From: the human T2T-CHM13v2.0 reference genome, Homo sapiens
Reading direction: 5' to 3' (one strand)
DNA: 64,000 nucleotides
Assembly (NCBI RefSeq): GCF_009914755.1
Contig: NC_060932.1
Shown here: positions 18,529-40,888 of the stretch, in pieces
Layout: the number at the start of each line of letters is the position of its first letter
How positions within the stretch are numbered: position 1 is the stretch's first letter
The notes under the pieces: model-generated
Database searches by the model: none
What the model was told of the DNA's origin: nothing
What the model saw: the letters and a program-made list of their open reading frames with translations, nothing else
Position numbers and translations under genes: made by a program

Positions 18529-19891
18529 TACAGGCAAAATTTAGTAAAAGGCCAAATATATATGTGAGATAAGAGAGTGGATGTACTATATTTCTCAGGA
18601 TAAGCCTGGGTATTACCTTGCCTTTTCAAATATCCCACATCTAATAATACACACTCGGCTGTACTTAAAATCATCCAATGTTTCACTTTACTTCATGCTA
18701 GAAAAACAAAAAGGAATAGAGATTGCCAAGGGTAGATGTCTAACTGGAAAATAAAAAAGGATATGATAGAGCTCATGGAGAGTTAATAATTAAGTAAATT
18801 AGATATGTATTTCTTCAAGTTTGGGATGGGAGAAGCTTTGAAGAAGCAGCAATGAATACCACGATTGTAAATTTCTTGTGGGCCTGAGCACTGCTGAAGT
18901 ACTGGAGCTAAGGCTTCACCTAAGATAGAGATTCATTGTTTCTTTGTACTCTTTCACCTTCTGCCTCTCTTAAATTCCTCCTCAAACTTATAATAGCAAC
19001 ATTATTTCTCACAACAGTCCAATGGTAGTGGCACTCATTCTGTGGCACTAAGATAGCTCATGATGAATTAAACAATGCATGTCCAGCCTATTAGCTGACT
19101 TTTGCTAACTATATCTACAAGAGTTACTAGTGATGTGTAGGACATTACCAACACAAATTGAGTGAATAATTTTTCTCCTCTTCAGACAATTGCTTCTTAT
19201 TAACATCCTTCCGGAGGTTGCTAATTAAGACTGTTACAGGCATTTTATTTCACATTTTTCTCTAATTTCTCTGAATATAGTGTTTTCTGTGCTGTAGAAA
19301 GAAGCTGTGGCTGACATTCTGGAATTCATTACGAGTTTTTCAACAGCTGAACATCATTATTTCATTGAGATATCTTCTGCCCCTGTCCTTGATGTCTATA
19401 AAAACTATACCTATGTTACCTGGTGAGCAATGGGTGCAGTTTGCCTGTGAGTATAGGCCACAAAGATGTCAACTGGAACTTCTGCTACTGGTCATTTCAA
19501 AGCACTTGCTTCGAAACACACACAGAAAATTTAAGTGATGTCCCCAAGCCATATAACAAACTAGGTCAGATCACTCTTAGTACATTACTCATTTCTGTGG
19601 CCCTCTTATTACTTCTTTGACTAACTAAGTGACTATTTTGCTAGTGGGCTATTCATAGAAACCCAGTGAAGATTTGTGGGAGGGTGATATGGTTAGGCTT
19701 TGTGTCCCTACCCAAATCTCATCTTCAATTGTAATCCCCAGGTGGTGAGAGAGCAACCCAGTGGGAAGTGACCGAATCATAGGGGTGGTTTTCTCCATGC
19801 TGTTTTCACGATAGTGAGTGAGTTCTCCCAAGATCCGATGGTTTTATAAGCTCCTGGCATTTCCCCTGCTTGCACTTCTCTCTCCTGCCAC

Positions 19892-21541
19892 TGTGTCCGG
19901 AATTCGTGGGTTCTTGGTCTCACTGACTTCAAGAATAAAGCCGTGGACCCTCGCGGTGAGTGTTACAGCTCTTAAGGTGGCGCGTCTGGAGTTTGTTCCT
20001 TCTGATGTTCGGATGTGTTTGGAGTTTCTTCCTTCTGGTGGGTTCGTGGTCTCGCTGGCTCAGGAGTGAAGCTGCAGATCTTCGAGGTAAGTGTTACAGC
20101 TCATAAAAGCAGTGTGGACCCAAAGAGTGAGCAGTAGCAAGATTTATTGCAAAGAGCGAAAGAGCAAAGCTTCCCCAGTGTGGAAGGGGACCCGAGCAGG
20201 TTGCCACTGCTGGCTCGGGCAGCCTGCTTTTATTCTCTTATCTGGCCCCACCCACGTCCTGCTGACTGGTAGAGCCGAGTGGTCTGTTTTGACAGGGTGC
20301 TGATTGGTGCCTTTACAATCCCTGAGCTAGACATAAAGGTTCTCCACATCCCCATCAGATTAGTTAGATACAGAGTATGGACACAAAGGTTCTCCAAGGC
20401 CCCACCAGAGCAGCTAGATACAGAATGTCGACTGGTGCATTCACAAACCCTGAGCTAGACACAGGGTGCTGATTGGTGTGTTTACACACCTTGAGCTAGA
20501 TACAGAGTGCCAACTGGTGTATTTACAATCCCTGAGCTAGACACAAAGGTTCTCCAAGGCCCCACCAGATTAGCTAGATACAGAGTGTCCACTGGTGCAC
20601 TCACAAACCCTGAGCTAGACACAGGGTGCTGATTGGTGTGTTTACAAACCTTGAGCTAGATACAGAGTGCCGATTGGAGCATTTACAATCCCTGAGCTAG
20701 ACATAAAGGTTCTCCAAGGCCCCACCAGAGTAGCTAGATACAGAGTGTCGATTGGTGCATTCACAAACCCTGAGCTAGACGCAGGGTGCTGATTGGTGTG
20801 TTTACAAACCTTGAGCTAGATACAGAGGGCTGATTGGTGTATTTACAATCCCAGGGCTAGACATAAAGGTTCTCCACGTCCCCACCAGACTCAAGAGCCC
20901 AGCTGGCTTCACCCAGTGGATCCCGCACCACCGGGGCCGCAGGTGGAGCTGCCTGCCAGTCCCACGCCCTGCACCCGCAGTCCTCAGCCCTTGGGTGGTC
21001 GATGGGACTGGGCGCCGTGGAGCAGGGAGCGGCGTCATCGGGTAGGCTTGGGCCGCAGGGTAGCCCATAGAGGGCGTGGGAGGCCCAGGCATGGCGGGCT
21101 GCAGGTCCCGAGCCCTGCCCCGCGGGAAGGCAGCTAAGGCCCGGTAAGAAATCGAGCACAGCGCCGGTGGGCTGGCACTGCTGGGGGACCCAGTACACCC
21201 TCCGCAGCCGCTGGCCTGGGTGCTAAGCCCCTCATTGCCCAGGGCCGGCAGGGCCGGCCGGCTGCTCCGAGTGCGGGGCCCGCCAAGTCCATGCCCACCT
21301 GGAACTCCAGCTGGCCCGCAAGCGCCGCGCGCAGCCCCGGTTCCCTCTCGCGCCTCTCCCTCCACACCTCCCTGCAAGTTGAGGGAGCCGGCTCTGGCCT
21401 TGGCCAGCCCAGAAAGGGACTCCCACAGTGCAGCGGTGGGCTGAAGGGTTCCTCAAGTGCCGCCAAAGTGGGAGCCCAAGCAGAGACGGCGCCGAGAGCG
21501 AGCGAGGGCTGTGAGGACTGCCAGCACGCTGTCACCTCTCA
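19892..21541 (-). mobile_element. Full-length LTR12C-type (ERV9) solo LTR, 1650 bp
   Basis: Minus strand starts TGAGAGGTGACAGCGTGCTGGCAGTCC and ends ...ATTCCGGACACA; 4-bp TSD CCAC at 19888-19891 and 21542-21545. Confidence 0.96.
20215..20890 (-). promoter_or_regulatory. LTR12 U3 enhancer repeats and promoter (NF-Y CCAAT boxes, TATA-like AATAAAAG)
   Basis: GATTGG (CCAATC on minus) at 20302, 20471, 20631, 20672, 20750, 20791, 20832; ~40-bp subrepeats in a 160-bp higher-order unit; CTTTTATT at ~20227-20234. Activity is inferred from the family, not shown. Confidence 0.7.
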
Positions 21542-22089
21542 CCACCATGTGAAGAAGGTACCTTGCTTCCCCTTTGCCTTCCGCCATGATTGTATGTTTT
21601 CCGAGGACTCCCAGCCATGTGGAACTGTGAGTCAATTAAACCTCTTTCCTTTATAAATTACTCATTCTTGGGTATTTATAGCAGTGAGAAAATGGACACA
21701 GGGTAAAAATTTATTTCAAATTTATAGTTGTATTCTCAGTACTATGCCTGTGCCAAGCCATTTGATGAGGATTATCTGTGTTTGGTGACTGGTGCATAAT
21801 TAGGTTAAGACTGCAGATATACAGAGTAATCAACCACCTAAGCAGTGTGGTTTATGGATTTTCCAAAAGTATTCTCTTACTGATTTCGTCTCTCCCAACA
21901 GCTTACCATCATACCTCAAATTTTCACTAGAATCATTCCTTATAGGTCCCCTCAAGACAAAGTTTTTGGCTGCTTAGAGCAATCTGCTTTGAGGGGGAGT
22001 GAGAGATTGAATAATTAAGACTGAATTGCCAGATGCTGGATGATCTCAGAAGTGTATTCTCAGACCACTCCTCTTATCTGTTTAAGCTC

Positions 22090-22940
22090 TCTAAGTAACC
22101 TTACTCAATTCAATGCCATTAAATAACATTTTTATAAATAGATTTCCAAATTTTATTGTTACTATAACTTTTACACTGTGATCGGGTATTTTTTTTCTAA
22201 TTTCCTATTAAATGATGCCACTTGGATGTCCAATCAACATCACAAACCCCATCGAAAAGCAATTCTTCTCCCAGCCTTCTCCATTTTAGCAAAAAGTACA
22301 CCACACACTCAATGGTGCAGGCCTGAATAAAGGAGTTATTTTTGGTTTCTTTGTTCACCTTGCACATCTAATTTATTAGTGAATCTGGTCAGTTCTGCAT
22401 TAAAAATATATCCATTCTCTGCACCATGCCCAGAATGAGCTTATGAAAATGTAAATGGGATTAAGACATTTTCCTATTTAAATTTCTCTAATATTTCCTC
22501 ATAGAATTTAGAATAAAATTGCAAATCCTTATCATGGACTCAAGATGCTGCATATTGCTCTCTGGACTCATCTAGTACCAGTCTTCCCAGGTTCACCATG
22601 CTTTGATGTTCAATCACCTTGGACTTCTTTCTATTCCTTAAAGCAGTAAAATATTTATAATCAAAGACCTCTCTCTGTAAAACTTAGGGTAGCTCCTTTG
22701 TTTCATTCCTGTCCTAACTCCAAGGCAAGGAAGCCTTTCTTAACTAAATAGTCTCCTCAGTCACCCCTCTCATGTAATAATGGCATTGCTGTTACAGCAC
22801 TTACCAACTCTGAATTACCTAACTTATTTATTTGTTTACTTCTTTTTCTCTGACCCCTTCCTGGGGGATCTTATCTGGCTTGTTCATCATTCCCAGTGCA
22901 TATCTGAAACAATTATTAAAATACTGTAGCCACTCCATAC
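22090..22940 (+). mobile_element. L2 LINE fragments
   Basis: CCACTTGGATGTCCAATCAACATCACAAAC and AGAATAAAATTGCAAATCCTTATCATGG are degenerate L2 3' region motifs. Confidence 0.55.
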
Positions 22941-23074
22941 ATATTATTAGAAGAAATGTAGAAGGGATAGCAGCAAAATCCTGGTCTCCTAATGTATAGC
23001 CTGTGTTTTCTTTCCACTTAATTGGTACATTTGTAGTAAGTACCATTGTATACATTAGTGTAAAATATATCTTA

Positions 23075-23410
23075 ATGTATAAAATAGATTATGCTATAGG
23101 AACAAATTAACCTCAGAATCTCAGTAGGTTAATACATAACTTTTGGTAATTATTCATGGGAAGTCTGGTGTCAGTTGATGAAGCTGTTATTCCACCTGGT
23201 GACTCAGGGATCCAGATTCCCTACATGATATAATGTTGCCTTCTCCCCAGGGAGGTAGCACACCAGCTGTTAAGCATTTAGCCTAGACGTGAAACAAGTA
23301 ATTTCTGGTAAATTAGTATTGACTGGAACTAGTCTCACAGCCTAATGTAATCACAAGGGAGGATGGATTATTTAGGAGAACACCTGGTATATTTGGTAAG
23401 CAGTGCTACA
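23075..23410 (-). mobile_element. Old MaLR LTR (MLT1K/L-like)
   Basis: GATTATGCTATAGGAACAAATTAACCTCAGAATCTCAGT, GTGACTCAGGGATCCAG, TTGACTGGAACTAGTCTCACAGCC. Confidence 0.5.
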
Positions 23411-24824
23411 TCTAACCTACATTAATGGTATGGAATAGAAATAAGATGGGGAAGGGAATAGGAGAAAAGAGGTTGGGAGATTAAAACAATTTTTAAAAAT
23501 AGCAAAGAGAAAGGGGGAAAAACTAAACTGAAATATACTGACATTGCTCTCTGGGCTATATGCACTGCTAATGGAAGCTAATGGAGGGCTAGTTATAATC
23601 TCCACATTGGTGAATATATACACGTGTATAAATGTATATGTGTGTGTATGTGTGTGTGTGTATGTATATAGGCTCCCATTTGGTTTGCAGCTGTAGCTAA
23701 CATTACTTCCAGCTCCTAGTACTGTTGGAAAGTTTGTCTCTTAAAGCTTAAAGTCATGTTCTTCTTGATCCCATTGCTCTAAAGTATCTTCCCATTCTCA
23801 GATGACTCCACCTCAGGCTTGCCTTTATGTTCCACTTCACAGCTAATCATCTTAGATTAATACCAGGGGCACTTTTGCCTAATGGAGTTTCAGCAAGAAA
23901 GAGAGAGAGAGCCGGGAAGAAAGCCCCTGCTAAGTGAATATGTCTACTCATTTTCTCCTGTGTTTTACATGCTCTCTGGTATAAAAGAAATCACGGAAGT
24001 CAATGGATTAAATATAAATGTGAAGTAAGGAAATATGTGATAAAAGAGAGACGGATAAAAATGTACTTGAGCCCAATGGGCGGACCATGTGGTGAGCTGA
24101 TATAATACTTTAATTCTGGCATCCCTGTGGCTAGCCCAGGTTGACAACATTTCAAAGATGACAATTATTTGGAATAAATCCAAGATTATACTTTAAATAA
24201 AAATGTTCATAAATCATAGCTCTTCCACTATGAATAGGACAACCACATAAGCAATTACTTATAGAAGCAGTATTATCTTGCAATTCAAGCTGTTTCTTAA
24301 GTTGATTTTACTAAAAGCTTATTTTTTCCACCAAAGTGAAAAATGAAAACATTCAACTTATCTTGCTTTGTCCTGTATATGAAGTCCAAATAAATTAATC
24401 ATTTATTCTCTCCAAAAGTGATATGAATAAAAATATGAATTCAAAATCAAAGAGAAAAAGCCATTATGCCTAGAGTGAAGAGAGCTGGGGCAACTGCTGC
24501 AAAATGAGGCTGTCAGGGTGGGAAAGAGTCAGGATCCACTTCACCCAATGAGAACATTGAGCACCATAAGGGACTCTGGACTCAAAATAAAGCAGCACCT
24601 CTTTTCTGCCCATTGGGCAGCATGTATAGTGCTTAGAATCAGCATCCCCAACATCCAGTATTGGATGTGTTAGTACCAGCTTTGTGTCCTTGGGTGAGTT
24701 TTTTTACTCACATGTGTCAGTTACATCCTTTGTGCAATGAAGATTTAAACCTCTTGGAATGGATTTAAATAAGATAATGCATGTAGAGCTCATAGCACAG
24801 TCCTGGTCACATCTTAAATGCTGC

Positions 24825-25153
24825 TGATATGGTTTGGCTGTGTCCCGACCCAAATCTCATCTTAAATTATATCTCCCACAATTTCCAGGTGTTGTAGAAG
24901 AACATAGTGGGAGGTAATTGAATCATGGGGGTGGGTCTTTCCCGTGGTGTCCTGGTGATAGTGAATAAGTCTCATGATATCTGATGGTTTTAAAAGTGGG
25001 AGTTTCCCTGCACAAGCTCTCTCTCTTTGCCTGCTGCCATCCACATAAGATGTGACTTGCTTCTCCTTGCCTTCCACCATGATTGTGAGGCTTCCCCAGC
25101 CATGTGGAACTGTAAGTCCAGTAAATCTCTTTCTTTTGTAAATTGCCCAGTCT
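24825..25153 (+). mobile_element. THE1A/B-like LTR lacking its last ~40 bp (5' part of a chimeric LTR)
   Basis: TGATATGGTTTGGCTGTGTCCC start ... GGAACTGTAAGTCCAGTAAATCTCTTTCTTTTGTAAATTGCCCAGTCT; sits at the end of a MIR-like fragment (~24620-24820). Confidence 0.93.
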
Positions 25154-25361
25154 CCCAGTCTACATCTTTATCCTGAGGGCTTCCTGCCCTTGAACTTCAG
25201 ACTCCAAGTTCTTCAGTTTTGTGACTCAGACTGGCTTCCTTGCTCCTCAGCTTGCAGATGGCCTATGATGGGTGTGAGTTAATACTACTTAATAAATTCC
25301 CCTTTATATATATACATCTATCCTATTAGTTCTGTCCCTCTAGAGAACCCTGGCTAATACA
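25154..25361 (+). mobile_element. MLT2A (HERV-L LTR) 3' half (3' part of a chimeric LTR)
   Basis: CCCAGTCTACATCTTT...ACTCCAAGTTCTTCAGTTTTG...CCTCAGCTTGCAGATGGCCTAT...TCCTATTAGTTCTGTCCCTCTAGAGAACCCTGGCTAATACA. Confidence 0.9.
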
Positions 25362-25406
25362 GCTGCTCTGAAGCTTTGATGTTGGCAGGAGTAGTATCAA
25401 GAATGA

Positions 25407-25416
25407 TATACTATAT

Positions 25417-25447
<31 letters not shown>

Positions 25448-25508
25448 AAACACACACAGACACACACATATATATATACACACACATACATACATACATA
25501 TATATATT
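25407..25508. repeat. (TA)/(CA)/(TACA) compound microsatellite
   Basis: Directly visible. Confidence 0.9.
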
Positions 25509-27129
25509 TAACTCAGACAATTTATAAATGCTATTTTACTTTATAATATATTTTAATATCATTGCTGTTTTCCTATCACAAATTTCTATAAAAGCCAGGC
25601 AACATATAAAAACCATACTCCTTCAATTTCTTAGTGTGGACAAAATATTTTTCAGTATTTCTGTGTTTAGTTCAGTTCGGTGATATTCCAGTTGCTTTTT
25701 AAACTCTAGGAGAAAAAAATGTATCAGGGTAGATTATGGTACCCATTTGACATGGGAAATGGCTGTCACCCACATGCCAATGTGAAAGGTGTTTCTTGAT
25801 ACAAAAGGAAGCTGTAAATTCAATTTCAGTAAATGTTACTTTACCAAATACTGAATAAAATTCAGAGAGATGCAGAGAAAAAAATTACAGAAGACAAATT
25901 CATATTAGTTCCAAATTAGATTTCTTTAACACATTGAAAAATACTAAAATGTCACAGGAATGGATTCAGTCTGCAGACTACTTTGGACAAAATTGCCTTT
26001 TAAAATGGAAAGTCAAGATGGTGATGCTTAGTATCATGCCAGTGAAAATCCTAGTAGAAAAATCTTGGTAAGGGGACTGATTGAAACTTAAAAAAATTAT
26101 TTTAGTATTATTGGGAAGCATTTATATTATAGCAGTGGCTTTAAATTTTTTTGGATTGTGACCTATAGTATGAGGCATATTTAGAATTGTGATCCAGTTT
26201 ATACAAACATATAATACACATATACAAACAAAAGAAAATGAATTTTCATAAATAATATTTACCTGGAATGCATCCAATAAAGTCTACTATTTTTATTTTA
26301 TTATCTTTAAAATATTTGTTAAATTTTAAGAAATTGATTCCCAGAACCTTAAAAGGGTTATGGCCTACCTACATTTAAATTATGCTGTTTTACAAAATAG
26401 TTAATTACGTTGTTAAAAATAAGAGTTAAAAGGAATTTTTACCTTATTATATATTCATATATATTAGAAAGCTACAGGCATATGGTTGCAACAATAGGAA
26501 GTCCTAAGTTATACCTATATTTACATAAACAATTTCATATACAATAGAAACGCTATTTTAGTCAGCAATATGATCATATATTATACAAAATGTATCTTAG
26601 TGTAGGCCTTTGTTATTTTGGGGAAATGATATTTAGATTGTTTACTTCACAACTTACATCTAAACAAACTGCAGAAGTATTAAAAATATAGGTGCCAAAA
26701 ATGAAATGATCTAAGTACTAGAAGATTATGAAGATTATTTGTGTAATTTTGGGTTGCGGAAGGTCAAGAATGATGACAAAGTCAGAAATCATTTAAAAAT
26801 GATAGAATCAACAGCCCATAGTGTGAAAATGTTTATATGTTAAAATCATTACAAACACAATTAAAATCCAAATGATAACCTGAGAATAATTTTTAAAATA
26901 TATAATACACAAAGTATTTCTAATGTGGAGATGTCTTCCTTGATAATTAAAATAAATGCCACTAAAATATAAATAGTATGTACAAAGCATAAACCTAAAT
27001 AATTAGTAAGAAAATTTAAAAAATCAAGTTGATTATTTTAAAAAGTTCAAGTTAAAACAATGATAAACTTTTGTACTTATGAAATTGAAAAATTTGTATT
27101 TTTAAGGTTATAAAACCCACTGTTATTTA

Positions 27130-27345
27130 GCTGACATTTATTGAGTGCTTTCTCTATGCTAGACACTATTTTAAACATTCAGTATCCTGCTTAATATTTC
27201 TAGAAAACCTATAAGTAGATACCATAACTACCATCTCTATTTACAGGACATTGAGGCTAAGACAGGTTAAGTCATATGTCTAATAAGTAGTGGAGTCACG
27301 TTTTGATTCCAGGAAATCTGAAATCCGAGCCCACACTTTTAATCA
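27130..27345 (-). mobile_element. MIR SINE within old L1M sequence
   Basis: CATTTTATTGAGTGCTTTCTCTATGCTAGACACT...TTTACAGGACATTGAGGCTAAGACAGGTTAAGTCAT. Confidence 0.65.
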
Positions 27346-27789
27346 AGATTTACTTGTGCTTCCAATACTGGCTAGAGTGTAAAAAAAGTATTGTTAGAAG
27401 TAGTGTAGGTAGTACCCTCTTTCTAGAGAGGACTTTATAAAATATCCCCCAAGCACTAAAAATGTGCATGCTGTTTGGAATATCAACTGTATTTTTACAA
27501 ACCTATTCAACACATAGCTACAAACTCATGCAAATAATTCGTTGTGCAGATTTCCACACAAATTTTTCAACAGCAGAAAACTAACAGGAAATAAAGAGAT
27601 TAAATATTTACTAATTGAATACATTGTGGCATATTCATGTCATGGAATACCTTTTAGCAATTGAAATATCGCCTTTGATGAATAGTTATTGACAAATATA
27701 TAAGTATAAAAAACAGATTATAAAACAATATGTATAACATGACTTTAACCAGATACTTTTAGTTTTATATTTAGATCAATTCTGCATTT

Positions 27790-29310
27790 TTTCCCTACTC
27801 TACTTTCTGACCTGGAGGCTGATCCGTCTGGATTTTATCAACAGAGTTCCTATCCCTATGAACTTGGAATTGATAGGTTTGGAAATCCCAGTACCCAATG
27901 GAAGAAAGTTTCTTCTAGAGAAAATAATAATAATTTTAGTGAAATATCTCCTTCATTTGAACCCTTAAAAATAAAAAGAAATAACAGAAGCCTGAGAAAG
28001 ATGTCAGTCACTGTACTGAGCATGGTAATTGATTTCAATTACAATGAAAAGGAATTGACCTACAGCTATGAAATGGGAGCTAAGAAGAATCCTTTTGGGA
28101 TCTGGTGATTCTGTTGAGACATCTCTGAGTACTCATTTCCTCAATATTGTTGTCCAATAGAAGGCCATTCAACCAAATAAATACAGAAACAAGAACTCAA
28201 TAATTGTAGGAAAGAAGTTTGAATTTATCCTACAAGGTAAAGTACCCCATTCAGACAAAGTACTGGCATAGGGTAAAGGAGAAAAAAAGTGTTATAGAAA
28301 GAAGCATTTCTGAGATATGTCTGTATGGTAGGTTGTATGTCCAAACTGTTATGACTCCATGGTATAACATGTGATGGGATTTTGTGCATCCTCTGTGTTG
28401 GAGATGTAAACTTTTCACATGGTAGAAGGATGATATATGGTTTGGCTGTATCCCCACCCAAATTTCATCTTGAACTGTAGTTCCCATAGTCTTCATATGT
28501 CGTGAGAGGGACCCGGTGGGAGGAAACTGAATCAAGGGGGAAGTTTTCCCCATGCTATTCTTGTGGTAGTTAGTAAGTTCTCATGAGATATTATGGTTTT
28601 ATAAGGGGCTTCCCCCTTCACTTGGCTCTCATTCTTCTCCTTCCTTCCGCCATGTGAAGAAGGATGTGTTAGCTTCTCCGTCCACCATGATTGGAAATTT
28701 CCTGAGGCCTCTCCAACCATGCTGAACTGAGTCAATTAAACCTCCTTCCTTTATAAATTACCCAGTCTCAGGTATGTCTTTATTAGCAGTGTGAGAACAG
28801 ACTAATACAAAGGACACAGGCAAATTCTGAGGATCAAATAGAGTTGATAGTACAAATATCTTCCATTTGTATGTATAGATTTGCCCTCTCTTTCTTCTGT
28901 AGACTACATCAGCAGGGTTCCTACTCCATCTGATTTTATTTGAATTTATCCAGTGCAAAGCCCTAAAAAGAGATCAGAAGGAGGGATGAGAGTAAGATCA
29001 GAGTAAGTACTAATTTCCCTGGCTCACTCTCTGCAGCTTTCCCATAGACTGGCTGGGTCCCTTGACCATGCTCATGTTTCCTGACAAGGTGACTGACTCT
29101 ATACAACTCTTTATCCTTCTAGGTTCCAGTGACTGTGTCTCCATTCTCATTTATTTGTCCTTAGGGTTGAAAATAGCTCACAAGGAACAAGCTCTGTGTT
29201 ACTGTACTAACTTTTGTGGTTCCTCTATATCCAAACTTTTGTAACTTCTCCCCTTTTAATATAAACCTTCTTAAATATCCATTAGAGTGTCTTATGTATT
29301 CAGTCTGGAG
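27790..29310 (+). mobile_element. Degraded ERVL-class remnant: LTR33-like pieces (~27790-27860, ~28880-29310) and internal dUTPase/3' region (~27870-28300), interrupted by THE1
   Basis: CTGTAGACTACATCAGCAGGGTTCC...GAGATCAGAAGGAGGGATGAGAGTAAGATCAGAGTA resembles LTR33; GTCACTGTACTGAGCATGGTAATTGATTTCAATTAC resembles the ERVL dUTPase region. Confidence 0.5.
28431..28809 (+). mobile_element. Full-length THE1C-like solo LTR
   Basis: TGATATATGGTTTGGCTG...GAACAGACTAATACA; perfect TSD AAGGA at 28426-28430 and 28810-28814. Confidence 0.95.
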
Positions 29311-29424
29311 AAAACATATAAGAGAGGTTAAGCAAATGCCCTACAGTCCTGACTCAAAATTTAAGTACAACCTCAAAAATATTTTTAAAATGTTTATCTA
29401 TTTATTAGTTTTGTTCACTGAAAA

Positions 29425-30077
29425 GCCTTGGAGACAATGACTAACCCAGTAGCAATGAGCATCCCTAGCATCCAGATTGTGCTTCTGCAGTAATAGCTGA
29501 TACCATGTGTGATGGTTAATTTTACGTGTCAACTTGACTGGGTCAAGAGATACCTAGATAGCTAGTAAAGAATTATTTCTCAGTGTGTCTGTGATGGTGT
29601 TTCTGCAGGAAACTGGCGTGTGTGAGTAAGTGGACTGAGTGGCAAACATCACCCTCAAGGTGGATGGGAACATTCAATGAACTGGGGGCCCACATAGAAC
29701 AAAAAGGCAGGGGAAGGATGAATTCTTGCTCTTTTTCCAGAGCCAGGGTCCCCTTCTTTTCCCGGCATTTTGGAGGTAAGAACTCCAAGTTCCCTGGCTT
29801 TTGAACTCCAGGACTAACACTGGACATTGGGCTTTTGGGCCTTTGGCCTCAAACTGAGAACTACACCATTAGCTTTCTTGGTTCTGAGGCTTCTGGACTT
29901 GAACTGGGCCACACTTCCAGCTTCAGTGGTTCTCCAGCTTGCAGTTGGCCTATCATGGGACTTCTTAGCCTTTATAATTGTGTAAGCCAATTCCCCTAAT
30001 AAATTCCCTCTCATATATCCATTTCTACATATCTACATCTGTCTATCTATCTATAGATAGACAGATGTAGATACTAA

Positions 30078-30128
<51 letters not shown>

Positions 30129-31600
30129 ATTATATTTTGTTTCTCTGGAGAACCCTTACAAATACACCAAGTCAGCGGCAGGAAATGCAAAAGATGACTC
30201 TGGCATCTTGGCATACCAGAGAGCATAGAATCTCTCTAAGACTGCGGGGATAAATGGGACAATTTGAGATTTAATAAAAGTAAACATTGAAATTGATCTA
30301 CACTTGTTTAATATGTTTAAACCAATAAGTTTAATATATATGTGTGTGTGTGTGTTTGTGTGCGCGTGTATATATATATAGATTATAATTGGTTATCTAC
30401 TGAGGGAACGAATTCATTATCTTGAAAACTGGCTAAATCAGAGAAAATAAATATTTGACATGCCTTTCTATATGAACACTGCATCATAGAATAAAAAACT
30501 AATAGGTTTGTGTGGGGTATCTCTGGAAATATTTCTTAATTTTGGCTACTTGAAAAGACTCATAAGATTCCATGGAGTACACTCATTTAAGACTATTATT
30601 TAAAGTCAAAGGGGATGGTACATCAAAAGAAAGAGTTCAGACAGGCATTTGGGGATCCATGAGACTTTCAGATGCAACCTCTATGTGGTTCTTATTCAAA
30701 CACAGATATACATCTCTTATTCAAGCATCAAGATCTGTGCAAATAATTTTGGCTTTAGAAGAGCTCGAGGCAGAAGTTTCTAGAACATCTTTTATGGCCC
30801 TCTGGTCACACAATCATCCAGGCTGTGTAACCCATTGTGTTAGTTGAAAATCGTCAGTAAACAAACCAGCCCTGGTGCTTTGGGGTCACCCACGGGAGTT
30901 TTGGAGTTTAAATCGGACATCGTAACTGCCACTGTACTTGTCTTGGTCAGGAGTTAAAGGCAGACATCCAGGCTTCCCTAGAGAAAAAAAGACAGTTTTC
31001 TGAGGCTAGCTGTAGGTAAACTCCACTCTATAAAACCTATTTATAAAATTATTTCAGCTAATTAATGAAAAGAAAATGATAGAATTAGGAAATCACTATT
31101 TCACAATCAGCAATGAATGAATGGATTTAAGCATTTTTCATTCCAGCTGCGAATATCAATAAAAAAGACATTTTATGCCTATTAATAAAGAAGACATTTT
31201 GTAAGGGATCATTTCTGAGACTGATGAAGTCTCTGGATACAAATTCTAATTTTTAGGAAATATAGGAGACAGAAGAACACATTAAATTGCACCATGGGTA
31301 TGCTATCAGTAAATCTAGACTGACAAACTCAAGTCAAATGTTTGTAGTTTCTTTAAAAGACTGTGAGTTGTATATTCTTTACCTGAAAAATTGTATGGAA
31401 AAGAAATGGAGCAGGGGAATCTAAATTTTTGTTTTTTAAGATTTAAACGATGCATCAAGTTAAAACTGTGATAAGTCTATATCATGGTGACTAGGGCTGC
31501 ATGCACAGTTAGATGATCAAAGCATAAGCAAAATGCGAGGAGAGTGGGCATCCATTGGGATGGAGCACATGGAGGGGCTTCTGACATGGTTTTACAAATC
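29425..31600 (+). mobile_element. Old L1MC/MD-like 3' fragments hosting MLT2 and another probable LTR (~30495-31030)
   Basis: GACAATGACTAACCCAGTAGCAATGAGCATCCCTAGCATCCAGATTGTG; continues after MLT2 with GGAAATGCAAAAGATGACTCTGG and at ~31050 with AAAGAAAATGATAGAATTAG. Confidence 0.5.
29508..30166 (+). mobile_element. Full-length MLT2B/C/D-type (ERVL) solo LTR
   Basis: TGTGATGGTTAATTTTACGTGTCAACTTGACTGGG start, TTTCTCTGGAGAACCCTTACAAATACA end; TSD CCATG/CCAAG (4 of 5). Confidence 0.9.
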
Positions 31601-38526: not shown

Positions 38527-39278
38527 TTTTTTAATTTTTTAAATTTCAATAGCTTTAAGGCTACAAGTGGTTTTTGGTTACATGGATGAATTGTATAGTG
38601 GTGAAGTCTGGGCTTTCACTATGCCCATCACTCAAATATAGCGTATATTGCATCCAATAGGTAATTTTTTATCTCTCTCCCTCTCCAAACCTCCCCGCTT
38701 CTGACTCTCCAATACTTTTTCTGCATCTCTAATACTTTTTGAAGGTCTACAAAGAAGCTAATTTATTTATATAATCCCACAGTAGTAAAAACAGGACATG
38801 TGGGCCATTACTGCTTCCACTTTCTTGCATGGCATCCGTCTCCCTAGAGCCAGATGGAGAGGGAGTCTAATAACAAGTCTTAGAGCAGGGCTCCAGGAAG
38901 CTACCATTAATTGCTTAGGGCTGGCATTGGGCCTGATGTGGTTTGGCTCTGTGTCCCCAACCAAATCTCATGTCGAATTGTAATCCCCAGGAGTCAAGGG
39001 AGAGGTCTGGTGGGAGGTGATTGGATCATGGGGGAGGATGTCCCTTCTTGCTGTTCTCATGACAGTGAGTGAGTTCTCATGAAATCTGATCGTTCATTAT
39101 TCCACTCTATATGTATTTGCATACCCATAGCTTAGCTCCCACTTATAAGTGAGAATGTGCAGTATTTAGTTTTTCATTCTTGAATTACTTCACTTAGGAT
39201 AATGGCTTCCAGTTCCATCCAAGTTGCTGCAAAAGATATTATTTTGTTCCTTTTTATGGCTGAGTAGTATTCCATGGT

Positions 39279-40523: not shown

Positions 40524-40888
40524 TGATATGGTTTGGCTCTGTGTCCCCAACCAAATCTCATGTCGAATTTTAATCCCCAGGAGTCAAGGGAGAGACCTGG
40601 TGGGAGGCGATTGGATCGTTGGGGAGGATTTCCCTTCTCTCTGTTCTCATGATAGTGAGTGAGTTCTCATGAAATCTGATTATTTAAAAGTGTATGGCAC
40701 CTCCCCCTTCTCTCACCTGCGTCACCATGGGAAGATGTGCCTTGCTTCCCATTCGCCCTCTGCCACGATTGTAAGTTTCCTGAGGCCTCCCCAGCCATGC
40801 AGAACTGTGAGTCAATTAAATCTCTTTTCTTCATAAATTACCCAGTCTCAGATAGTTCTTTACAGCAGTGTGAAAACGGACTAATACA
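40524..40888 (+). mobile_element. Full-length MSTA-like MaLR solo LTR
   Basis: TGATATGGTTTGGCTCTGTGTCCCC...AAAACGGACTAATACA; perfect TSD GGGCC at 40519-40523 and 40889-40893. Confidence 0.95.

What the first reader, a model, noticed from the sequence alone, without database searches (positions are those of the whole stretch)
24820..25366. Chimeric THE1/MLT2A LTR inside a single perfect target-site duplication: possible fossil of MaLR x HERV-L recombination
Seen: a TG...CA element (24825-25361) is flanked by identical GCTGC (24820-24824, 25362-25366). Its first ~330 bp read as THE1A/B and its last ~210 bp as MLT2A, joined at CCCAGTCT-CCCAGTCT (25146-25161) with no internal TSD. Established: MaLRs such as THE1 are non-autonomous, are thought to use ERVL machinery, and both classes make 5-bp TSDs; THE1 and MLT2A were both active in anthropoid ancestors. 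Inference: the two halves integrated as one unit after template switching between co-packaged THE1 and HERV-L RNAs, which would be direct evidence of the helper relationship. Alternative: because both LTRs end in CTAATACA, a later conversion or repair event could have replaced the THE1 3' end. A standard annotation would just list two adjacent fragments.
Basis: partly seen in the sequence, partly recalled or inferred. Interest (0 to 1): 0.8.

Follow-up and report, generated by a model that had tools for sequence, protein, structure and literature searches.

The report
Hybrid THE1/HERV-L LTR, single insertion
A 537-base retroviral fossil on human chromosome 8 is half THE1 and half HERV-L LTR yet was inserted as one piece, which suggests that RNAs of the protein-less THE1 parasite and of its presumed helper virus HERV-L were once copied together by one reverse transcriptase.

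Summary
Window 24825-25361 is a TG...CA element flanked by GCTGC on both sides. Bases 24825 to about 25154 match a roughly 371-bp MaLR LTR family (THE1-type) at 86-89% and lack its last ~40 bp. Bases from about 25149 to 25361 match the last ~228 bp of a ~447-bp LTR family that flanks RT- and integrase-coding DNA (MLT2A1/HERV-L-type).

New here: the HERV-L part begins 5-15 nt after the published MLT2A transcription start. The THE1 part ends 24-29 nt after its poly(A) hexamer. So the element reads U3-R(THE1) + R-U5(HERV-L).

The upstream flank is single-copy. Neither missing half was found within about 5 kb. Both halves are equally diverged (0.059 and 0.060). No second copy of the junction turned up in the T2T genome.

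Best reading (about 0.65): nascent HERV-L minus-strand strong-stop DNA switched onto a THE1 RNA at 3-6 nt of microhomology, and the hybrid LTR was then integrated once.

Rivals:
- templated DNA repair that replaced the THE1 end
- two insertions plus a deletion, with a chance duplication

The decisive test, orthologous sites in other primates, could not be run. It is one locus, of moderate interest.

The parts
24820..24824 (+). Left copy of the 5-bp target-site duplication GCTGC
   Evidence: 5-bp duplications are the rule in both families: 4/5 or better in 13 of 29 A copies and 15 of 29 B copies, against 1 of 58 in the shifted control.
24825..25154 (+). THE1-type MaLR LTR part: positions 1 to about 331 of a ~371-bp LTR. 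It begins TGATATGG and reads as U3 plus R, and lacks the last ~40 bp (U5) of the family.
   Evidence: All 29 A copies align here at 85.6-89.4%. The copies continue ...CCCAGTCTC + about 40 nt ending GACTAATACA, which the window lacks. The family name is recalled, not tested against a consensus.
24988..24996 (+). TATA-like run TTTTAAAAG in the THE1 part (presumed U3/R region)
   Evidence: Sequence only. Its role as a promoter box is inferred and was not tested.
25120..25125 (+). Decayed poly(A) hexamer of the THE1 part: AGTAAA here, ATTAAA in most copies
   Evidence: A polyadenylated retrocopy (L075) ends 13-16 nt after this hexamer.
25146..25161 (+). Perfect tandem CCCAGTCT x2 spanning the joint. 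The first unit is THE1 sequence and the second is HERV-L LTR sequence (CCCAGCCT in most copies).
25149..25154 (+). Crossover zone AGTCTC: 3-6 nt of microhomology between A (AGTCTC) and B (AGCCTC). The last A-only bases are 25147-25148 and the first B-only base is 25155.
   Evidence: Comparison of window, A copies and B copies.
25155..25361 (+). HERV-L-type (MLT2A1-like) LTR part. Together with the crossover zone it corresponds to positions 220-447 of a 447-bp copy, i.e. R from 5-15 nt after the transcription start, plus U5, ending CTAATACA. It carries an internal deletion of about 15 bp.
   Evidence: Transcription start at 205-215 of the 444-bp MLT2A1 consensus, from PMC8559712 (passages).
25291..25296 (+). 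AATAAA poly(A) signal of the HERV-L LTR part
   Evidence: The same position in copy L032 reads AATAAG.
25362..25366 (+). Right copy of the target-site duplication GCTGC

Best explanation
The element is a solo hybrid LTR with the layout U3-R of a THE1-type MaLR followed by R-U5 of a HERV-L (MLT2A1-type) LTR. It was made during one round of reverse transcription and integrated once.

Proposed steps:
1. A HERV-L RNA and a THE1 RNA lay in the same particle.
2. DNA synthesis started at the HERV-L primer-binding site and copied U5 and R towards the 5' end of that RNA. This product is the minus-strand strong-stop DNA.
3. Five to fifteen nt before the end, the nascent strand switched at a 3-6-nt microhomology (AGYCTC) onto a THE1 RNA at its R/U5 border. 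The landing place was either the 3' end of the THE1 RNA or its 5' copy, followed by the normal R-guided transfer.
4. Synthesis went on through THE1 R and U3.
5. The resulting LTR (THE1 U3-R + HERV-L R-U5) was formed at both ends of the cDNA.
6. The cDNA was integrated, giving the 5-bp duplication GCTGC, and later collapsed to a solo LTR.

Shown:
- the anatomy of the element and the duplication
- the position of both breakpoints relative to RNA landmarks
- the equal divergence of the two halves
- that this is the only locus found with the joint

Inferred: co-packaging, the order of the switches, and a former provirus. The element has no known present function; it is a fossil of how it was made.
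For: (1) Single unit.
- Perfect GCTGC/GCTGC sits exactly outside TG...CA. Both families make 5-bp duplications, and the shifted control gave 0 of 58 perfect matches.
- The 405 bp upstream are single-copy in the genome: 1 candidate, the locus itself.
- No 5' half of the B LTR and no 3' end of the A LTR adjoins the element in window 20001-30000. The only strong hit of the 45-nt A 3' end belongs to a separate full-length MaLR LTR at 28435-28809.

(2) HERV-L breakpoint at the RNA 5' end.
- PMC8559712 (passages) maps MLT2A1/2 transcription starts to positions 205-215 of the 444-bp consensus, in an AG-rich stretch downstream of a TATA box.
- In the 447-bp copy L032 the TATA-like box starts at 178, and the window's B part begins at 220.
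- Thirty of 38 B copies carry TATAAA or AATAAAA here. Its first base lies 44-48 nt before the CCCAGCCTA motif (21 copies measured).

(3) THE1 breakpoint at the R/U5 border.
- It lies 24-29 nt after the ATTAAA hexamer.
- One L1-type retrocopy, with a 17-bp duplication and about 23 A, shows a real poly(A) site 13-16 nt after that hexamer.

(4) The joint is not the best shared word.
- The two LTRs share three exact 10-mers elsewhere (A117/B242, A233/B315, and the common 3' end), but only CCCAG / AG-CTC at the joint.
- RNA ends therefore explain the place better than homology does.

(5) Equal age.
- Star-tree terminal branches from pairwise Jukes-Cantor distances are 0.059 for the A half (29 copies, median 0.066) and 0.060 for the B half (25 copies, median 0.050).
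- Four of 29 B copies were dropped for under 90% coverage.

(6) Compatible machinery.
- Both families end GACTAATACA and begin TGATATGG / TGTGATGG.
- The primer-binding sites after their 5' LTRs begin identically, TGGTACCAG.
- Family B flanks RVT_1 (3e-24) and rve (3e-15) coding DNA.

(7) Opportunity and precedent.
- Reviews state that HERV-L and THE1 both amplified in simian primates and are co-expressed in cleavage embryos, and that MaLRs lack pol (PMC11359688, passages).
- First-strand transfer can go to the co-packaged RNA, and non-homologous switches occur at low rate (PMC3187697, passages).
Against: - The THE1 part runs 7-15 nt (TTGCCC and beyond) past the only poly(A) site I could document (L075). 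Two searches for retrocopies polyadenylated at or after CCCA found none. So 'acceptor = extreme 3' end of the THE1 RNA' needs an unshown second cleavage site, or the switch landed on the 5' R/U5 copy, where the nearness to the border would be partly coincidence.
- The first 5-15 nt of HERV-L R are missing, so the transfer was premature or a tail was trimmed.
- The mapping of published consensus coordinates onto copy L032 is uncertain by a few nt.
- Only one locus exists. No same-type chimera and no reciprocal chimera was found, though exact-anchor patterns are insensitive for copies this old.
- The copies used for the age estimate were chosen as best matches to the window, which biases both branch lengths downward.
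- No ortholog or empty site was examined.
- The family names are not verified against Dfam or Repbase.
Confidence: 0.65

Rival explanations
1. Templated DNA repair or gene conversion. An ordinary THE1 solo LTR, with its own duplication GCTGC, suffered a break near its 3' end. Repair copied about 213 bp from an ectopic MLT2A LTR, entering at the AGYCTC microhomology and leaving at the shared terminal GACTAATACA. This replaced the last ~40 bp of THE1.
For: It keeps the duplication without any special assumption. Both LTR families end in the same 10-mer GACTAATACA, and there are a few bases of microhomology at the left joint.
Against: - The left joint falls 5-15 nt after the MLT2A transcription start, which this model leaves to chance: about 15/447 by my arithmetic.
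- Longer shared words (two internal 10-mers) were not used.
- No donor was seen. The best genomic match to the B part is 87% identical, on another chromosome, and is simply a little-diverged copy. There is no MLT2A1-like copy elsewhere in the 64-kb window. Only 40 of 3,062 candidates were scored.
- The equal divergence of the halves would be coincidence.
Confidence: 0.12
2. Two independent insertions, a THE1 LTR next to or nested with an MLT2A LTR. A later deletion removed the THE1 3' end and the MLT2A 5' half. The matching GCTGC pair is chance.
For: MaLR and ERVL LTRs do lie side by side by chance. In locus L058 a full B LTR is followed 21 bp later by a MaLR LTR. Microhomology at a deletion joint is common.
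Against: - A perfect 5-bp match at fixed positions has a chance of about 0.001. The control gave 0 of 58.
- The outer ends are the exact TG and CA termini.
- Both breakpoints fall at RNA landmarks.
- The upstream flank is unique sequence, not the MLT2A 5' half.
- In L058 each element keeps complete ends and its own duplication.
Confidence: 0.05
3. The whole element is a copy of an already catalogued composite LTR family, or an assembly artefact.
For: None found. The hub's note says NCBI masks it as two stretches (24951-25156 and 25177-25362).
Against: - The 547-bp query found only itself at full length. All other listed matches stop at or before query position 353 (40 of 10,142 candidates scored).
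- The 101-bp joint query found only itself spanning both sides. Of the 39 other matches, 36 were B-side and 3 were A-side (40 of 474 candidates scored).
- Two gapped patterns found only this locus.
Confidence: 0.01

Closest known systems
Intermolecular and non-homologous minus-strand (first) strand transfer and template-switch recombination in retroviruses (review PMC3187697, passages read; specific vector experiments on non-homologous minus-strand transfer are recalled, not seen)
   Same: The strong-stop DNA can jump to the co-packaged RNA. Non-homologous switches occur at low rate (stated as at least 1000-fold below homologous ones). The product is an LTR whose U3 and U5 come from different parents.
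   Different: Here the parents are two different endogenous families, one of them without pol. The R regions are unrelated, so both R regions are kept in tandem (R-R). The event is a germline fossil tens of millions of years old, not a laboratory product.
Mosaic or recombinant HERVs (Vargiu et al. 2016, PMC4724089, passages; HARLEQUIN and HERV-S/HERVL32/HERVL66 in Kojima 2018, PMC5753468, passages)
   Same: Recombination after cross-packaging is the favoured explanation there, and some recombinants reintegrated.
   Different: Those are mosaics of internal regions or env capture, mostly within one class, and many form families. This is a breakpoint inside an LTR between a MaLR and HERV-L, and only one locus was found with it. 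Vargiu et al. left MaLR largely aside and judged most MaLR-containing chains artefacts.
Complex LTR retrotransposons made by abnormal template switching in Triticeae (Sabot and Schulman 2007, PMC1950507, abstract read); Dasheng/RIRE2 chimeras in rice (recalled, not seen)
   Same: A fused daughter element is formed during reverse transcription and inserted as one unit. In the recalled rice case, chimeras between a non-autonomous element and its autonomous partner are used as evidence of shared machinery.
   Different: Those are plant Gypsy/Copia elements, and large complex elements that share an LTR rather than a hybrid LTR. I found no mammalian MaLR/ERV-L case in print.
Ordinary THE1 solo LTR and ordinary MLT2A1 solo LTR
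   Same: TG...CA termini, a 5-bp duplication, and 81-89% identity to genomic copies over the parts present.
   Different: The THE1 part lacks its last ~40 bp and the MLT2A part lacks its first ~219 bp. Neither half has a duplication of its own.

Membership tests
THE1-type MaLR LTR | Full-length similarity to the ~371-bp LTR family that begins TGATATGG and ends GACTAATACA | tested here: not met
   Only positions 1 to about 331 are present, at 85.6-89.4% to all 29 copies. The last ~40 bp are absent.
THE1-type MaLR LTR | The family's LTRs flank a short internal region with a primer-binding site and polypurine tract | tested here: met
   Six of 29 A copies are followed by ...TGGTACCAGTAGAGTGGGG..., and several are preceded by a purine-rich tract. 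Whether that internal region lacks pol was not tested here; it is taken from PMC11359688. This holds for the family; the window copy is solo.
THE1-type MaLR LTR | Match to the Dfam/Repbase THE1A-D consensus and assignment to a subfamily | not testable with these tools
No repeat library is on hand.
MLT2A1 / HERV-L LTR | LTR of about 444 bp that flanks retroviral pol | tested here: met
   Family B is 447 bp in L032 and aligns over about 440-470 nt to all 28 other B loci at 83.6-91.4%. Downstream of a 5' LTR, L071 has RVT_1 at 3.3e-24 and rve at 2.8e-15. The 444-bp length is from PMC8559712. The window holds only positions 220-447.
MLT2A1 / HERV-L LTR | TATA box and AG-rich transcription start near position 205-215 | tested here: met
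   Seen in the family: 30 of 38 copies carry TATAAA or AATAAAA 44-48 nt before CCCAGCCTA. The window copy lacks this part by construction.
MLT2A1 / HERV-L LTR | dUTPase domain after integrase (ERV-L lineage mark, PMC5753468) | tested here: inconclusive
   PF00692 scores E=0.056 and 13.7 bits, below the cut-off of 22, in the piece right after integrase of L071.
Recombinant LTR made by template switching and integrated as one unit | One target-site duplication around the whole, none inside | tested here: met
Recombinant LTR made by template switching and integrated as one unit | Breakpoints at landmarks of the RNA templates (5' end of the donor RNA; R/U5 border of the acceptor) | tested here: met
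   Donor side: 5-15 nt after the published start. Acceptor side: 24-29 nt after the hexamer, but 7-15 nt past the one documented poly(A) site. The acceptor side is met only approximately.
Recombinant LTR made by template switching and integrated as one unit | Same age of both parts | tested here: met
   Terminal branches of 0.059 and 0.060, from samples of copies biased towards the window.
Recombinant LTR made by template switching and integrated as one unit | Orthologous empty site with a single GCTGC, and the same joint in every species that has the insert | not testable with these tools
   No primate genomes are held; the tool states that G000 has no relatives here.
Propagated recombinant LTR family | Further copies with the same joint and different flanks | tested here: not met
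   Only the window locus was found.

The most novel reading that the evidence does not exclude
This locus is a physical record that a THE1 (MaLR) RNA and a HERV-L RNA were packaged in one particle and copied by one reverse transcriptase. HERV-L minus-strand strong-stop DNA jumped onto THE1 RNA, giving a U3-R(THE1)/R-U5(HERV-L) LTR that HERV-L-type integrase then inserted. That would be the first direct sequence evidence that HERV-L was the helper that mobilised the roughly 50,000 THE1 copies of anthropoid genomes. It would also be a natural example of a non-homologous first-strand transfer between different retroelement families.
Probability: 0.55. Interest if true: 0.6.

Novelty: new variant of a known kind. 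Interest (0 to 1): 0.5.

Why it matters
MaLR elements such as THE1 have no pol. They are assumed, without direct evidence, to have been mobilised by ERV-L. A hybrid LTR inserted as one unit bears on that assumption. One breakpoint lies at the 5' end of the HERV-L transcript and the other at the R/U5 border of THE1. That is what co-packaging followed by a heterologous strand transfer would leave behind.

It makes the helper question testable by a census of such chimeras across primate genomes. It also shows what standard repeat annotation hides when it lists two adjacent fragments.

It remains a single, non-propagated, apparently functionless locus. The result interests retroelement specialists more than it overturns anything.

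Tried and rejected
- THE1 homology to 25172. Four of 29 A copies align that far. B copies fit 25155-25173 far better (17 of 19 by eye against about 11 of 19 with gaps), so the crossover was placed at 25149-25154.
- The 8-bp tandem as a post-insertion duplication. This is not needed, because B copies already carry AGCCT-CCCAGCCT.
- Nested insertion. BLAST of a full A and a full B copy against the window found neither missing half beside the element.
- A paralogous empty site. The upstream flank is single-copy, so none can exist.
- Other chimeras. Two gapped patterns for A-to-B joints found only this locus. One pattern for the reciprocal B-to-A joint found nothing. Exact anchors would miss most old copies.
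- Mapping the THE1 poly(A) site through retrocopies. Four patterns were run. Two found nothing. One found L075, a true retrocopy. One found an unrelated A-run.
- dUTPase in the HERV-L-type provirus L071. Only a sub-threshold hit.
- Earlier notes of this scan.
- A search for a donor MLT2A copy within 100 kb either side of the window. The window itself covers about 25 kb upstream and 39 kb downstream and holds no MLT2A1-like copy.
- Print search. (full-text searches) returned no paper describing a THE1/MLT2A or MaLR/ERV-L chimeric LTR. Subscription journals are not covered.
Full report
**Observation.**
- One search shows GCTGC (24820-24824), then an element that starts TGATATGG at 24825 and ends CTAATACA at 25361, then GCTGC again (25362-25366).
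- Tandem Repeats Finder reports CCCAGTCT x2 at 25146-25161.

**What the two halves are.** The window's own genome (T2T human, handle G000) could be searched.

The whole 547-bp stretch found itself and a large family. Of 10,142 first-look candidates, 40 were scored. The other matches cover only query 1-8 to 331-353 at 85-89%.
- In a local BLAST all 29 fetched copies ('family A') align from 24817-24827.
- Twenty-five end at 25152-25154. Four end at 25172, through a gapped, poorer extension.
- These copies are about 371 bp long. They begin TGATATGG and continue after ...CCCAGTCTC for about 40 more bases to GACTAATACA. The window lacks that tail.
- Several are 5' LTRs followed by ...TGGTACCAGTAGAGTGGGG, or 3' LTRs preceded by a purine-rich tract.
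- This is what I recall as THE1, a MaLR. The name was not tested against a repeat library.

The 3' 205 bp found a second family. Of 3,062 candidates, 40 were scored, at 81-87%.
- Its members are about 447 bp long. L032 1247-1693 aligns to all 28 other loci at 83.6-91.4%.
- The window corresponds to positions 220-447.
- Behind a 5' LTR of this family lie reverse transcriptase (RVT_1, 3.3e-24) and integrase (rve, 2.8e-15). A sub-threshold dUTPase hit follows just after integrase (E 0.056).
- Length (444 bp), a TATA box and an AG-rich start region agree with MLT2A1 of HERV-L as described in PMC8559712 (passages).
- Repbase pairs HERVL with MLT2A1/2 and THE1_I with THE1A-D (PMC5753468).

**The joint.**
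- A copies read ...AAATTGCCCAGTCTC|GGGTATG....
- B copies read ...CTTAGCCTCCCAGCCTACATC....
- The window reads ...AAATTGCCCAGTCTCCCAGTCTACATC...
- The last bases that only A explains are 25147-25148. The first that only B explains is 25155. The crossover lies in AGTCTC (25149-25154), which is 3-6 nt of microhomology.
- The perfect 8-bp tandem follows from B's own AGCCT-CCCAGCCT. It is not a duplication made at the joint.
- There is no filler and no internal target duplication.

**RNA landmarks.** This is the new point.
- PMC8559712 maps the transcription starts of 361 active MLT2A copies to consensus positions 205-215, downstream of a TATA box.
- In L032 the TATA-like box starts at 178, and the window's B part starts at 220.
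- Thirty of 38 B copies have TATAAA or AATAAAA at that place, 44-48 nt before CCCAGCCTA (21 measured).
- The HERV-L part is therefore R-U5 minus the first 5-15 nt. That is the stretch copied into minus-strand strong-stop DNA.
- The THE1 part ends 24-29 nt after its poly(A) hexamer (ATTAAA in copies, AGTAAA at 25120-25125 here).
- One L1-type retrocopy (L075) shows a real poly(A) site 13-16 nt after that hexamer. It has a 17-bp duplication and about 23 A.
- The THE1 part is therefore U3-R plus 7-15 nt.
- The two LTRs share three exact 10-mers elsewhere but only 5-6 nt at the joint. The place of the joint is better explained by RNA ends than by a search for homology.

**One insertion or two?**
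- Both families make 5-bp duplications. Matches of 4/5 or better occur in 13 of 29 A copies (6 perfect) and 15 of 29 B copies (8 perfect). The remainder include LTRs of full-length elements and copies whose ends were extrapolated.
- The control with the downstream 5-mer shifted by 7 gave 1 of 58 at 4/5 or better and 0 of 58 perfect.
- The 405 bp upstream are single-copy.
- Neither the 5' half of B nor the 3' end of A lies beside the element.
- Terminal branches estimated from pairwise Jukes-Cantor distances, without building a consensus, are 0.059 for the A half and 0.060 for the B half. These used 29 A copies and 25 of 29 B copies. The copies were chosen as best matches to the window, so both values are biased low.
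- At an assumed neutral rate of about 2e-9 per site per year (recalled), this is about 30 million years as a lower bound. That agrees with the statement that HERV-L and THE1 amplified in simian primates (PMC11359688).

**Uniqueness.**
- The 101-bp joint query found only itself across both sides. The 39 other matches were 36 B-side and 3 A-side; 40 of 474 candidates were scored.
- Two gapped patterns for A-to-B joints found only this locus.
- A pattern for the reciprocal joint found nothing.
- There is no propagated recombinant family. The pattern searches would miss most diverged copies.

**Mechanism.** Best reading, about 0.65:
1. In a particle holding a HERV-L RNA and a THE1 RNA, DNA synthesis began at the HERV-L primer site and copied U5 and R.
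2. Near the 5' end of that RNA the nascent strand switched onto THE1 RNA at its R/U5 border.
3. Synthesis continued through THE1 R and U3.
4. The finished cDNA carried the hybrid LTR at both ends and was integrated once, giving GCTGC.
5. It later collapsed to a solo LTR.

Two things make the second strand transfer and the integration of such a hybrid feasible. The primer-binding sites begin identically (TGGTACCAG). The LTR termini are nearly identical: TGATATGG against TGTGATGG, and both end GACTAATACA.

Transfer to the co-packaged RNA and rare non-homologous switches are textbook properties of retroviral reverse transcription (PMC3187697).

One point stays open: whether the landing site was the 3' end of the THE1 RNA or the 5' R/U5 copy.
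- A landing at the 3' end needs a cleavage site at the CA of 25148-25149, which I could not document.
- A landing on the 5' copy would have been followed by the normal R-guided transfer.

**Rivals.**
- Templated repair that replaced the THE1 end (0.12). It keeps the duplication, but leaves the coincidence with the transcription start to chance, and no donor was seen.
- Two insertions plus a deletion with a chance duplication (0.05).
- A catalogued family or an artefact (0.01).
- The remainder is left for variants I have not thought of.

**Comparison and novelty.**
- Recombinant ERVs and template-switch products are a known kind (PMC4724089, PMC5753468, PMC1950507).
- In three full-text searches I found no description of a MaLR x ERV-L hybrid LTR with both R regions in tandem and breakpoints at RNA landmarks.
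- I file it as a new variant of a known kind.

**Limits.**
- This is one locus.
- No orthologs were examined.
- The names were not checked against Dfam.
- Published consensus coordinates were mapped onto a real copy with a few nt of uncertainty.

Noticed in passing
L075 1417-1560 (G000:C9, about 93.924 Mb): A 5'-truncated, polyadenylated retrocopy ending inside a THE1-type LTR (about 23 A after ...CTTTTGT), flanked by the 17-bp direct repeat AGACTAGAGGCAAATTA. It is an L1-type processed copy that marks a real poly(A) site of a THE1-LTR-terminated RNA.
   Followed up: partly
window 28435-28809; also 40524-40888, 38934-39094, 19685-19849, 21545-21697: Further MaLR-type LTRs or fragments, 72-75% identical to the THE1-type copy of L002. 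The one at 28435-28809 is full length, on the + strand, and keeps the 45-nt 3' end (91%).
   Followed up: no
window 29567-30166: Three short, weak matches (75-83%) to the HERV-L-type LTR, in order and on the + strand. This is probably an older ERVL-type LTR 4 kb downstream of the chimera. It is too diverged to be a donor of the B half.
   Followed up: no
window 25406-25507: A compound (TA)n/(CA)n/(ATAC)n microsatellite 40 bp 3' of the element.
   Followed up: no
L058 1266-2058: A complete HERV-L-type LTR with its own duplication (CCACT/CCATT), followed 21 bp later by an older MaLR LTR (78%). This shows that the two LTR kinds can lie side by side through independent insertion, each with complete ends.
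   Followed up: partly
L032 700-2000 against L045, L043, L058, L054: The flanks of the HERV-L-type LTR in L032 are themselves a repeat that runs uninterrupted in L045 (587-1402). That LTR therefore sits inside another, older repeat, with a recognisable empty site in paralogous copies.
   Followed up: no
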